This document shows positions 27,001 through 30,000 of a stretch of DNA of 64,000 nucleotides, one piece after another. The first letter of the stretch is position 1, and each line of letters opens with the position of its first letter. The DNA comes from Escherichia coli (GTDB lineage Bacteria; Pseudomonadota; Gammaproteobacteria; Enterobacterales; Enterobacteriaceae). The position numbers are program-made. Location: the NCBI RefSeq assembly GCF_041886205.1, contig NZ_CP169029.1; one strand, 5' to 3'.

Positions 27001-30000
27001 CCATCGACATAGTATTTTTTCAAAGCAAGAATTGCCTTCTCGCTATGTATTCCTGATAGCTTGATCAGGATATCAAAGTCTCTTTCAGATATATTCCCCT
27101 TTGTCATGTGTCACTCCATGAATCAAATTTCATAGTAATCAATCTTTCTTTGATCGACTTATAGATAATAAGATCAGAAATGATAAAAAAGTAACGCATA
27201 TTTCTTCTCGTCATGTCTACTTATAAAATTCAAATGAACTAACCTGAACTACTTACACTGGAATATCATTATATTGGAATAATTATAAAACTGAACAAAA
27301 TGGTCAATGTAATCTGGTTAATTTATAAATATTTACATTGCGTGATGATATTTAATTCCAGTGTTAAGTAATGTCACATGCCTATTATTGGTTACTACTT
27401 TGTAGGTGTTTTGGTTCGGCGTTAATATCATTGGTCATAATCACCTGTGAAAGTTTATTCTTGAAATGTTATAGGTATATTACTTGCAATTAAAAATGAG
27501 AAATTTATTATTATTGTGTTTTGCAAATATAATAATTAAAAATTTATTATAAATTATGATTAGAATTGACAATATAAAAGAATAATAAAACTCAATATGA
27601 AAATAATTATCATCTGGTTTGATACTTTTGCTGTTGATTACAGGAATAAAGTGTCAGAATAATATTGTTATTGGGTAAAAAAAGCCTCCACTATATGTGG
27701 AGGCAAACCCTTAGATAGTTCTATTGAGGCAAGTATGTTATAAATCTGCCTTATCTTTTATAGCATATAAAGATATGTATGCTATATTTTTTTGAAGAAA
27801 TTTTTCCAGAAATTACAGTAATACAAGAAATATTAACTGGTGTGATTTTTGGATGTTTAATAAGTACAGTGTACTTATATTTTTGTAATAAAGATGAACG
27901 CGTCCTTTAGATAAACTGAAAATATTAAGCATGTCTCATGTGGTTTTCTGAATCAAAACTCTTTTCAGTCTTTGATTTTTTGTTAAAAACAGGTTTATTA
28001 CAAGGGTGTTGTTGTGAAATGTGTTTTGGTGTCGTTGTGATTTTATGGTGATAATGTGAATTTTTATCCTTTCAAGATGGCTCCCTGGACGTTAAATACA
28101 GTGGAAATTTATATTAAGATATAAATATAACTATTGCGTTATTTAAATTATTGTCTATTACAGCTCCAGTTAATAGAGCCTGAAGTAATTTCTTAGTATT
28201 TCATCATAAGCGTTTATCTATCGTCTCTTTCTAAATTAACCGGTCGTATTACAAGGTGCTGAATCTGATTAAGGAATGATACTTAGGGGATTATGGCTGA
28301 CTTAATAATTAGATAACTGATAAATGACTATCAGGGGGATATCGTTAAGTCAGCCTTTAAAATCAAGCGATTATATAGCTGGTGACTCTTTTCGAAGAGC
28401 ATCAAGGTAGTCAGCGTACCATTGCATCATTTCTCGTCTTCCTTCAAGGTAACGAGCATGGTTGTATGTACCACGAATGCTGTTTTTGTCCGTATGTGCA
28501 AGTTGCATTTCAATCCATGCACTATTGAATCCTTGCTCGTGTAGAACAGTACTCATTGTATGACGAAATCCATGCCCGGTAGCTTTTTTGTCATAGCCAA
28601 TCTTCTTCAAAACCATATTGACGCTTGCATCGCTGATAGGCCTGTTAACATCATTTCTTCCGGCAAAGATGTATCTGTATCTTCCAGTCAGTTCTTTGAG
28701 GATTTGCAGAGACTGGATTGCCTGATCTGACAGAGGGACGATATGCTCCTTCCTCATTTTCATCCGGGTCGGAGGAACTTCCCATATCTTTTGGGTAAAA
28801 TCGATCTCACACCATTCCCCCATACGTAATTCTACTGTTCTCAGCCCTGTGAGCATCAACAATTTTGTAGCTTCACGGGTTACAATACTGCCGGTGTAGT
28901 TTTCGAGTTTGTATAAAAACTCTGGTAGTTCAGGAGGAAGCAGGAAAGGGTAATGTGTTCGCTTATAGCTTTTTATTGCTATAACCAGATCAGAAGCTGG
29001 ATTGTATCGTGCCCGACCTGTAACAATGGCATACCGAAACACTTCACCACATCGTTGGCGAACTTTATTAGCTAGCTCGCAGGCTCCTCGGCTTTCGATA
29101 CGCTGAAGAACTGCGAGAAGTTCAAGAGGTTCGATTTCACTAATGGGTCTGTTTCCAATGTAGGGAAACACATTATTTTTGAATGCTCTGTCGACATAAT
29201 CAGCGTAGCTGGCAGACCAGCCTGAAACTTTTGCGTTGTACCACTCGGTGGCGATTGCGGCAAAAGTTCTTCCTTCGGAAAGGTTTTTCTCAAGATTTTC
29301 AGCTTTCTTGACTTCACCGGGATCTTTACCATCGGCATGTATTTTCTTGGCTTCATCCCGACGTTTGCGAGCTTCAGCCAATGTAATAGTTGGATAGGTG
29401 CCAAATGATAGTTTCTTTTCCTTCCCCGCATAGTGGTACTTCATTCGCCAGTACTTTGAGCCGTTAGGATTGACCTGAAGGTAGAGCCCACCACCATCGG
29501 CAATCTTATAAATTTTATCTTTGGGTTTGGCTGTTTCAACTTGTCGAGCTGTCAGTGGCATCTGGGGGCCTCGCAATAGATTGACCAAGATGTGCCCCTA
29601 AATAGGCCCCCAAATGTGACTTGATTTACGTTCCCCTGAGGAGAATTAAGGCGACTATTTGAGTAACATAAGTAAGGGTATGTGCTGATTATAAAGGCTT
29701 TTTGTGGGGTATGGTAGATTTCAGGAGAGGTGTGCATGGTGTCCCCTGCAGGAATCGAACCTGCAATTAGCCCTTAGGAGGGGCTCGTTATATCCATTTA
29801 ACTAAGAGGACAATGCGGCATGAGTATACCCGCTAATGGACTGCGGGGTAAGTACACTGCCGCTCGATTGCTTAAACCCTCGCCATTTATGCTGGGTTTT
29901 TATCATTTTTCTTAATGTTTTCCGCACGTTCTGCTTTTTGGCGTGCTTCTGCTTTGCGCTTGTTGCTCATGTCGTTACGGATCTGTGCATGACTCATTAA

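What the first reader, a model, noticed from the sequence alone, without database searches (positions are those of the whole stretch)
28295..28355. 11-bp perfect inverted repeat with nested palindrome immediately downstream of the integrase gene
GGCTGACTTAA (28295-28305) and TTAAGTCAGCC (28345-28355) flank a 39-bp spacer containing the sub-palindrome TGATAAATGACTATCA. It lies 16 bp beyond the integrase stop codon. It could be a terminator-like structure, a binding site for an excisionase or regulator, or a relic recombination site.
Basis: seen in the sequence. Interest (0 to 1): 0.3.

Follow-up and report, generated by a model that had tools for sequence, protein, structure and literature searches.

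The report
Stem-loop after an island integrase gene
The inverted repeat is real and would fold into a stable hairpin at the 3' end of the integrase message of a decayed E. coli argW genomic island; it is most likely an ordinary transcript-end hairpin and is not a new kind of element.

Summary
GGCTGACTTAA (28295-28305) and TTAAGTCAGCC (28345-28355) are perfect 11-bp inverted arms. The nested hairpin CTGATA-N6-TATCAG lies at 28317-28334. The repeat starts 15 nt past the stop of a P4-type tyrosine integrase (minus strand, 28371-29561) that sits next to tRNA-Arg(CCU) argW in E. coli. On the integrase-sense RNA it folds at -24.5 kcal/mol (z = -5.8). It is not a canonical intrinsic terminator, because it has no U-tract and a 39-nt interior. 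The sequence occurs once per genome and only in this island lineage: 269 of 5426 complete E. coli genomes, in two haplotypes. It is absent downstream of 81 homologous integrases (75% identity or less). Those homologues do very often carry their own unrelated hairpin or terminator at the same position (57% with fold z < -2, against 11.5% in a control segment; p = 2e-8). The 50 nt after the hairpin are C-rich and G-poor, and a canonical terminator lies about 670 nt further on. The best reading is a 3'-end stem-loop of the int mRNA of the Rho-dependent type, which would protect the transcript end. Readings as a protein-binding site, a recombination relic, a MITE or an attC site found no support. 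Conservation evidence is weak, because stem divergence is about neutral. Interest is low.

The parts
28295..28305 (-). Plus-strand left arm GGCTGACTTAA. On the int-sense (minus) RNA it is the 3' half of the outer 11-bp stem.
28345..28355 (-). Plus-strand right arm TTAAGTCAGCC. On the int-sense RNA it is the 5' half of the outer stem.
28317..28334 (-). Nested hairpin CTGATA-N6-TATCAG. On the minus RNA it forms a 7-bp stem (with one G.U pair) and a UCAU loop. Apart from one C-to-U change that keeps the pair, it is the same in both haplotypes.
28356..28370 (-). 15-nt spacer between the int stop codon and the hairpin.
28371..29561 (-). P4-type tyrosine integrase gene (396 aa from the ATG) with Arm-DNA-bind_3, Phage_int_M and Phage_integrase domains.
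29737..29811 (-). tRNA-Arg(CCU), argW. This is the island's attachment site (attL side), upstream of int.
28245..28294 (-). Tract immediately 3' of the hairpin on the int-sense RNA. It is C-rich and G-poor (C 13, G 5, 10 YC dinucleotides) with no U-run, so it is a candidate rut-like region. It is conserved in the second haplotype down to about 28253.
27677..27704 (-). First canonical intrinsic terminator on the int-sense strand downstream of int: GCCTCCACATATAGTGGAGGC followed by T7.

Best explanation
The repeat is the DNA image of a stem-loop in the 3' untranslated end of the integrase mRNA of a degenerate argW genomic island of E. coli. Transcription of int (minus strand) runs through it. 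The RNA folds into an 11-bp outer stem that encloses an internal loop and a 7-bp hairpin. There is no U-tract, so RNA polymerase is not expected to stop there by the intrinsic mechanism. Termination is inferred to occur further downstream, either by Rho acting on the untranslated C>G tract that follows or at the canonical terminator at 27677-27704. 3'-to-5' exonucleases would then trim the transcript back to the hairpin, which sets and protects the steady-state 3' end. Shown here: the position, the fold stability, the strand-compatible substitutions, the lack of a U-tract, the C-rich flank and the family-wide occurrence of hairpins at this position. Inferred: that int is transcribed through the element, that Rho acts here, and that the hairpin affects mRNA stability.
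For: The minus-strand RNA folds at -24.5 kcal/mol (z = -5.8), and no shuffle folds as well. The second haplotype keeps the same architecture (-21.8 kcal/mol, z = -4.5). The three changes that touch pairs keep or add pairing on the minus-strand RNA: G-C to G.U, C-G to U.G, and C.A to C-G. Two of them give A.C mismatches on the plus strand. In integrase homologues of at least 54% identity, the first 90 nt after the stop have fold z < -2 in 57%, against 11.5% for a control segment 150-240 nt downstream (Mann-Whitney p = 2e-8). Sixteen of 80 meet strict terminator criteria, and many more have stems of 9-14 bp. The 50 nt after the hairpin hold C 13 and G 5, and C/G is 1.49 as far as the next terminator. 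A published E. coli 3'-end map describes Rho-dependent termini as stable stem-loops that lack a U-run and are followed by C-over-G enrichment (PMC6061677). No ORF overlaps the element, and Rfam has no match to it.
Against: No transcript data were available. The 39-nt interior and branched shape are unlike the compact stem-loops reported at Rho-dependent or intrinsic termini. Stem divergence between haplotypes (2 of 36, 5.6%) is no lower than the neutral proxy (int third-codon divergence, 8.1%). The stem-versus-loop contrast therefore comes from fast-changing loops, and purifying selection on the stems is not demonstrated. No double compensatory change exists. Two wobble-compatible transitions out of two would happen by chance about 1 time in 4. 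C/G over the first 200 nt is only 1.23, the 79th percentile of the window. One strain carries an IS insertion inside the left arm, so the hairpin is dispensable there. The island appears immobilised, so int itself may be under little selection.
Confidence: 0.45

Rival explanations
1. The repeat is a neutral leftover: a palindrome with no current function. It could be a chance repeat or the decayed remnant of a former int terminator, and it looks conserved only because the island lineage is young.
For: About one perfect 11-bp IR of this kind is expected per 64 kb by chance. All 269 copies fall into two haplotypes that are at least 89% alike. Stem divergence is about the same as the neutral rate. 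The island is riddled with IS fragments and lacks attR. An IS insertion in the arm is tolerated. No U-tract is present.
Against: The nested second hairpin and the placement 15 nt after a stop codon, where relatives have hairpins, make pure chance less likely. The fold z-score is -5.8 to -6.7. All stem-touching changes preserve pairing on the sense RNA.
Confidence: 0.3
2. The repeat is a DNA-level binding site for a dimeric or looping protein, such as an excisionase, an island regulator or IHF. The two outer arms and/or the inner CTGATA-N6-TATCAG would be the recognition half-sites.
For: The dyad symmetry is perfect. The inner palindrome has the size of a typical helix-turn-helix operator. An IHF-consensus-like AATCAAGCGATTA lies at 28361-28373 (read).
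Against: The arm motif occurs nowhere else in the window within 1 mismatch, and the hits at 2 mismatches match chance and are not at attL. The outer half-sites are 50 bp apart centre to centre. The two haplotype changes in the stems break DNA dyad symmetry (G to A on one arm only) but keep RNA pairing. No candidate regulator gene is adjacent. The motif is absent from all homologous integrase loci.
Confidence: 0.1
3. The repeat is a plus-strand barrier. The hairpin followed by TTTAAAAT would stop or stabilise transcripts that come from the AT-rich region towards int, limiting antisense transcription into the integrase gene.
For: The plus-strand fold is -24.9 kcal/mol (z = -3.7), with 12 pairs and three U directly after the stem. 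The plus strand has the better GC-adjusted rank, in the top 0.65%.
Against: The tail has only three U followed by A's. The consensus scan did not call it a terminator. Both haplotype stem changes create A.C mismatches on the plus strand and lower its z-score to -2.6. No plus-strand gene ends nearby.
Confidence: 0.08
4. The repeat is a relic of mobile or recombination DNA: the terminal inverted repeats of a miniature transposon, an integron attC-like site, or an old att site.
For: The element is 61 bp long with perfect 11-bp terminal repeats. In the second haplotype the arms read ACTTAAC...GTTAAGT, which fits the attC core consensus RYYYAAC/GTTRRRY (the consensus is recalled from my own knowledge).
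Against: There is one copy per genome in 269 genomes and no other copies in E. coli, phages or plasmids. The other metagenome matches to the arm pattern are unrelated sequences without the integrase. No target-site duplication is visible. Pairing extends outward from the TTAA cores, unlike attC. There is no IntI and no cassette array. attL lies on the other side of int, and no tRNA-end repeat is found elsewhere.
Confidence: 0.03

Closest known systems
Protective 3' stem-loops at Rho-dependent transcript ends in E. coli (Dar and Sorek 2018, PMC6061677)
   Same: It is a stable stem-loop just after a coding region. It is not followed by a U-run and not preceded by an A-tract of the terminator type, and the sequence after it is enriched in C over G.
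   Different: The published structures have stem and loop sizes like those of intrinsic terminators. This one is a long-range 11-bp stem around a 39-nt interior with a nested hairpin. No 3'-end or Rho-dependence data exist for this locus.
Intrinsic (Rho-independent) terminators downstream of homologous P4-type integrase genes
   Same: It has the same position relative to the int stop codon. Many relatives carry a GC-rich hairpin plus T-run within the first 60 nt.
   Different: It has no U-tract. Only 4 of the 11 outer pairs are G-C, and the loop is far above 3-8 nt. It was not called by the terminator scan.
Lambda sib/tI retroregulator of int (RNase III-sensitive hairpin 3' of int; from my own knowledge)
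   Same: It is an extended hairpin with internal loops located 3' of an integrase gene that could in principle influence int mRNA decay.
   Different: In lambda, sib is separated from int by attP, so its effect differs between prophage and free phage. Here attL is upstream of int, so the hairpin stays linked to int in both states. RNase III cleavage was not tested, and there is no sequence similarity.

Membership tests
Intrinsic (Rho-independent) terminator | G+C-rich stem with a short loop (about 3-8 nt) | tested here: not met
   The outer stem is 11 bp with 4 G-C pairs and encloses 39 nt. The inner hairpin has 2 G-C pairs out of 7.
Intrinsic (Rho-independent) terminator | U-rich tract immediately 3' of the stem | tested here: not met
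   The minus-strand tail is AUAAUCCCCUAAG. The plus-strand tail is UUUAAAAUC, with only three U. Neither strand was called by the scan.
Rho-dependent 3'-end protective stem-loop | Energetically stable stem-loop at the end of a transcription unit without a following U-run | tested here: met
   -24.5 kcal/mol, z = -5.8, starting 15 nt after the int stop, with no U-run.
Rho-dependent 3'-end protective stem-loop | C-over-G enrichment (rut-like) just downstream | tested here: inconclusive
   The first 50 nt hold C 13 and G 5, but the first 200 nt give C/G 1.23, only the 79th percentile of the window. C/G is 1.49 over the 590 nt to the next terminator.
Rho-dependent 3'-end protective stem-loop | Steady-state RNA 3' end at the base of the stem; read-through increases when Rho is inhibited | not testable with these tools
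   No transcriptome or Term-seq data were accessible.
Miniature inverted-repeat transposable element | Multiple dispersed copies with terminal inverted repeats and target-site duplications | tested here: not met
   There is one place per genome, always next to this int. There is no target-site duplication and no related copies in metagenomes.
Integron attC site | R''/R' cores at the outer ends with L''/L' inner pairing, next to gene cassettes and an IntI integrase | tested here: not met
   The cores match the consensus in one haplotype only. Pairing extends 6 bp outside the cores, the inner region pairs differently, the integrase is P4-type and not IntI, and there is no array.
Integrase arm-type or att site | Motif repeated at attL/attR, or identity with the tRNA 3' end | tested here: not met
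   There is no further copy of the arm within 1 mismatch, and the 2-mismatch hits are at the chance level and not near attL. No second copy of the argW 3' end is present.
Any curated RNA family (Rfam 15) | Score at or above the gathering threshold | tested here: not met
   Only the tRNA passes in the window. A permissive scan of 27000-28500 gives only chance-level hits.

The most novel reading that the evidence does not exclude
The branched 61-nt hairpin is a lineage-specific retroregulatory element: a double-strand-specific RNase (RNase III) target or a 3'UTR-derived small RNA. It would set integrase levels of the argW island after transcription, by analogy with lambda sib but permanently linked to int.
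Probability: 0.05. Interest if true: 0.35.

Novelty: new member of a known kind. Interest (0 to 1): 0.1.

Why it matters
It matters little beyond annotation. If confirmed, it would mark the 3' boundary of the int transcript of a widespread E. coli argW island, which is present in about 5% of complete genomes, including O26, O103 and O111 STEC and ATCC 8739. It would also add one example of a U-less protective stem-loop. The family-wide result is a modest, reusable observation: P4-type island integrase genes are usually followed at once by an unrelated, lineage-specific hairpin.

Tried and rejected
1. I searched for the element in phages and plasmids. Phages gave no match, and the single plasmid hit is a 1.4-Mb E. 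coli record carrying the same island.
2. I searched viral contigs. All five hits are the same E. coli island at 99.9% identity.
3. I scanned metagenomes for the arm pattern. Eleven island copies turned up, showing the same two haplotypes plus two loop SNPs. The other 48 stretches are unrelated and lack the integrase.
4. I looked for integrase relatives of intermediate divergence to obtain covariation. None exist: the protein clusters jump from 90% or more down to 75%, and the 75% relative has a different hairpin.
5. A covariance model built from 4 haplotype sequences found no copy in 81 homologue loci.
6. Covariation counting found no double-sided change.
7. I considered LexA-box and Fur-box readings of the inner palindrome by eye. 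The spacing is wrong (CTG-N12-CAG, and 7-2-7), so I dropped them. This was not a formal test.
8. I considered a promoter inside the element. The scan called none.
9. I considered small ORFs overlapping the element (24 and 28 aa). They have no support.
10. A literature search on argW islands returned only general descriptions of the variable argW-dsdCXA island and nothing on this hairpin.

Full report
**What is there**

The window at 28295-28355 reads GGCTGACTTAA-N39-TTAAGTCAGCC. The repeat finder reports the arms as 11 nt, 100% complementary and 39 nt apart.

The neighbouring ORF on the minus strand (28371-29561 from its ATG) encodes a 396-aa tyrosine recombinase. It has the Arm-DNA-bind_3, Phage_int_M and Phage_integrase domains, the architecture of the P4-type island integrases. 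Its stop codon occupies 28371-28373. The repeat therefore begins 15 nt past the stop, not 16.

**Context**

Upstream of int on the same strand lies tRNA-Arg(CCU) at 29737-29811, followed by yfdC and mlaA. This is the E. coli argW locus. The island to the left of int is a degenerate mosaic. It holds:

- a 1.26-kb AT-rich tract free of ORFs (21-33% GC);
- a 51-aa PapB/FocB remnant cut by IS3;
- an autotransporter gene and several IS fragments;
- a CP4-like accessory block, then the csc genes.

No second copy of the argW 3' end is present in the window, so an attR is not detectable. The variable argW-dsdCXA island is known in the literature (cited in PMC7545054). I found nothing about this hairpin.

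**Is it more than chance?**

About one perfect IR of at least 11 bp with a spacer of 60 or less is expected per 64 kb of shuffled sequence. The real window has nine such loci. The class is mostly non-random, but an individual case could be chance.

- The 96 nt around the element fold at -24.5 kcal/mol on the minus (int-sense) strand, with z = -5.8 and 0 of 200 shuffles as good.
- On the plus strand they fold at -24.9 kcal/mol, with z = -3.7.
- Against all GC-adjusted 96-nt windows of the 64 kb, the element ranks in the top 1.2% (minus) and 0.65% (plus).

The nested hairpin and the placement directly after a stop codon add to the case. I regard the structure as real but not exceptional.

**Distribution**

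The 133 bp around the element occur in 269 of 5426 complete E. coli genomes, once per genome and always abutting this integrase. The two genomes with two places have the match split, by an IS insertion in the one examined.

There are two haplotypes. One is in 240 genomes. The other is in 29 genomes, including ATCC 8739 and RM13745, and is 89% identical over the non-coding stretch. Single-base variants within haplotype 1 fall in the unpaired interior. In haplotype 2, homology ends at about 28253, where an IS3 fragment begins.

The element is absent from the phage collection. The only plasmid hit is a 1.4-Mb E. coli record with the same island. Viral-contig and metagenome scans returned only further copies of the same island, plus unrelated sequences that share the arm pattern but lack the integrase.

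The integrase protein cluster (at least 90% identity, 684 members, all named ones from E. coli) is followed by a gap down to 75% identity. No relatives of intermediate divergence exist that could supply covariation.

**Homologous integrases**

Eighty loci from other species (40-73% identity) and one relative at 75% identity carry no trace of the 61-bp sequence. This holds by eye and with a covariance model built from the four known variants, which matched only itself.

The position is nevertheless typically occupied by a hairpin. Many relatives show a GC-rich stem plus T-run right after the stop. Examples are L004, L015, L016 and L019. Sixteen of 80 pass strict terminator criteria, and many others have stems of 9-14 bp.

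Among homologues of at least 54% identity, 57% of the first 90 nt after the stop fold with z < -2. A control segment 150-240 nt downstream gives 11.5% (Mann-Whitney p = 2e-8). A stem-loop at the 3' end of int is therefore a positional trait of the family, realised by unrelated sequences in different lineages. That is the pattern expected of terminators and 3'-end hairpins, not of protein-recognition or recombination sites.

**Which strand, and is it selected?**

Between the two haplotypes, three changes touch paired positions:

| Change (minus-strand RNA) | Effect on the minus-strand RNA | Effect on the plus strand |
|---|---|---|
| G-C to G.U | pairing kept | A.C mismatch |
| C-G to U.G | pairing kept | A.C mismatch |
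| C.A to C-G | a 12th pair gained | a pair gained as well |

The plus-strand fold z-score drops to -2.6 in haplotype 2. This favours the int-sense RNA, but it rests on two or three events. Two wobble-compatible transitions out of two have roughly a one-in-four chance expectation.

Stem positions differ at 2 of 36 (5.6%), and unpaired positions at 6 of 25 (24%; Fisher p = 0.054). With the extra SNP variants the unpaired count is 8 of 25 (p = 0.011). The neutral yardstick, third codon positions of int, is 8.1%. The stems are therefore not demonstrably more conserved than neutral. Instead, the loops are unusually variable. There is no double compensatory change. Evolutionary support for function is weak.

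**Mechanism**

The element is not a canonical intrinsic terminator. On the int-sense strand the stem is followed by AUAAUCCCCUAAG. The outer stem has only 4 G-C pairs and encloses 39 nt. The consensus scan called nothing here.

The 50 nt after the hairpin are C-rich and G-poor (C 13, G 5, ten YC dinucleotides). C/G is 1.49 over the 590 untranslated nt down to the first canonical int-sense terminator, GCCTCCACATATAGTGGAGGC-T7 at 27704-27677.

In E. coli, Rho-dependent transcripts end at steady state just downstream of stable stem-loops. These stem-loops lack a U-run and are followed by mild C-over-G enrichment, and they protect the RNA from PNPase and RNase II (PMC6061677). The element fits that description in position, stability, lack of U and the immediate C-rich flank. 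It differs in its large branched interior. The C/G signal over 200 nt is unremarkable (79th percentile).

My best reading (confidence 0.45) is that this is the 3'-end stem-loop of the int mRNA. Termination would occur downstream, by Rho or at the 27.7-kb terminator, and the hairpin would define and protect the mature end. Every step after 'the RNA can fold this way' is inference.

**Rivals**

- **Neutral relic or chance palindrome in a decaying island (0.3).** The stems diverge at about the neutral rate, the lineage is young, attR is missing, and an IS5-family insertion at the TTAA of the left arm is tolerated in one strain.
- **DNA-binding site (0.1).** The arm motif is not repeated at attL or elsewhere beyond chance. 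The haplotype changes break DNA symmetry while keeping RNA pairing. No regulator gene is adjacent.
- **Plus-strand barrier against antisense transcription (0.08).** The plus-strand fold is good and UUU follows the stem, but both haplotype changes weaken it.
- **Transposon ends, attC or att relic (0.03).** Copy number is one and there is no target duplication. The other metagenome matches are unrelated. The attC-like cores appear in one haplotype only, with the wrong pairing geometry and no IntI.

**Verdict**

It is an unannotated, lineage-specific instance of a well-known class. Interest is low (0.1).

The most novel reading not excluded is a sib-like or RNase III retroregulator, or a 3'UTR-derived small RNA (probability about 0.05).

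Noticed in passing
window 27600-27860: A chain of hairpins in the AT-rich tract. The best GC-adjusted 96-nt fold of the whole window is at 27617-27712 (plus strand). The tract includes a canonical minus-strand terminator (stem 27684-27704 plus T7) and a plus-strand AT-rich hairpin with T7 (27760-27794), so the two face each other and overlap. There is a weak sub-threshold Rfam hit to an Actinobacillus sRNA (32 bits against a gathering score of 99).
   Followed up: partly
window 27108-28370: A 1.26-kb tract with 21-33% GC, no ORF above 43 aa and no annotation in RefSeq. It is found only in this island (241 E. coli genomes) and always lies between the PapB-like remnant and int. Its function is unknown; it may be the orphaned upstream regulatory region of a lost fimbrial operon.
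   Followed up: partly
window 26952-27107: A 51-aa PapB/FocB-family regulator remnant, truncated by an IS3 copy whose transposase ORF ends at 26955.
   Followed up: no
window 13900-29736 (island): No second copy of the argW 3' end (at least 17 of 20 nt) anywhere in the window, so the island seems to have lost its attR. With its many IS fragments and pseudogenes, it is probably immobile although int is intact.
   Followed up: partly
L003 3192-4000 (strain CDE2901-yvys), equivalent to window 28301-28305: An IS5-family element is inserted at the TTAA of the left arm and splits the hairpin. A second strain (2013C-3513) has IS600 inside int.
   Followed up: partly
window 28361-28373: AATCAAGCGATTA matches the IHF consensus WATCAANNNNTTR (recalled from memory) and overlaps the int stop codon. 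In AT-rich DNA this may be chance.
   Followed up: no
L002 about 4050-4105 (haplotype 2): In the RM13745/ATCC 8739 haplotype the arms read ACTTAAC...GTTAAGT, which fits the integron attC core consensus RYYYAAC/GTTRRRY. Nothing else about the locus is integron-like.
   Followed up: partly
L120 854-920, L132 723-790, L140 1634-1700: Environmental metagenome contigs carry four to five tandem copies of the same 11-mer, (CTTAAGTCAGCC)n, plus one inverted copy, resembling iterons. They are unrelated to the integrase. Bog and peat contigs (L095, L100, L121, L129) have clustered GACTTAA/TTAAGTC motifs.
   Followed up: no
window 16983-17058; 9576-9652; 19406-19449: Other perfect inverted repeats with long spacers in the island region: GTTAACGTTAAC (12 bp, spacer 52), GAACTTTTGCT (spacer 55) and TTTTCCGGTTG (spacer 22).
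   Followed up: no
L119 3095-4234: A metagenome contig with the island copy also encodes a second integrase of the same family (48% identity) about 3.3 kb away from the first.
   Followed up: no
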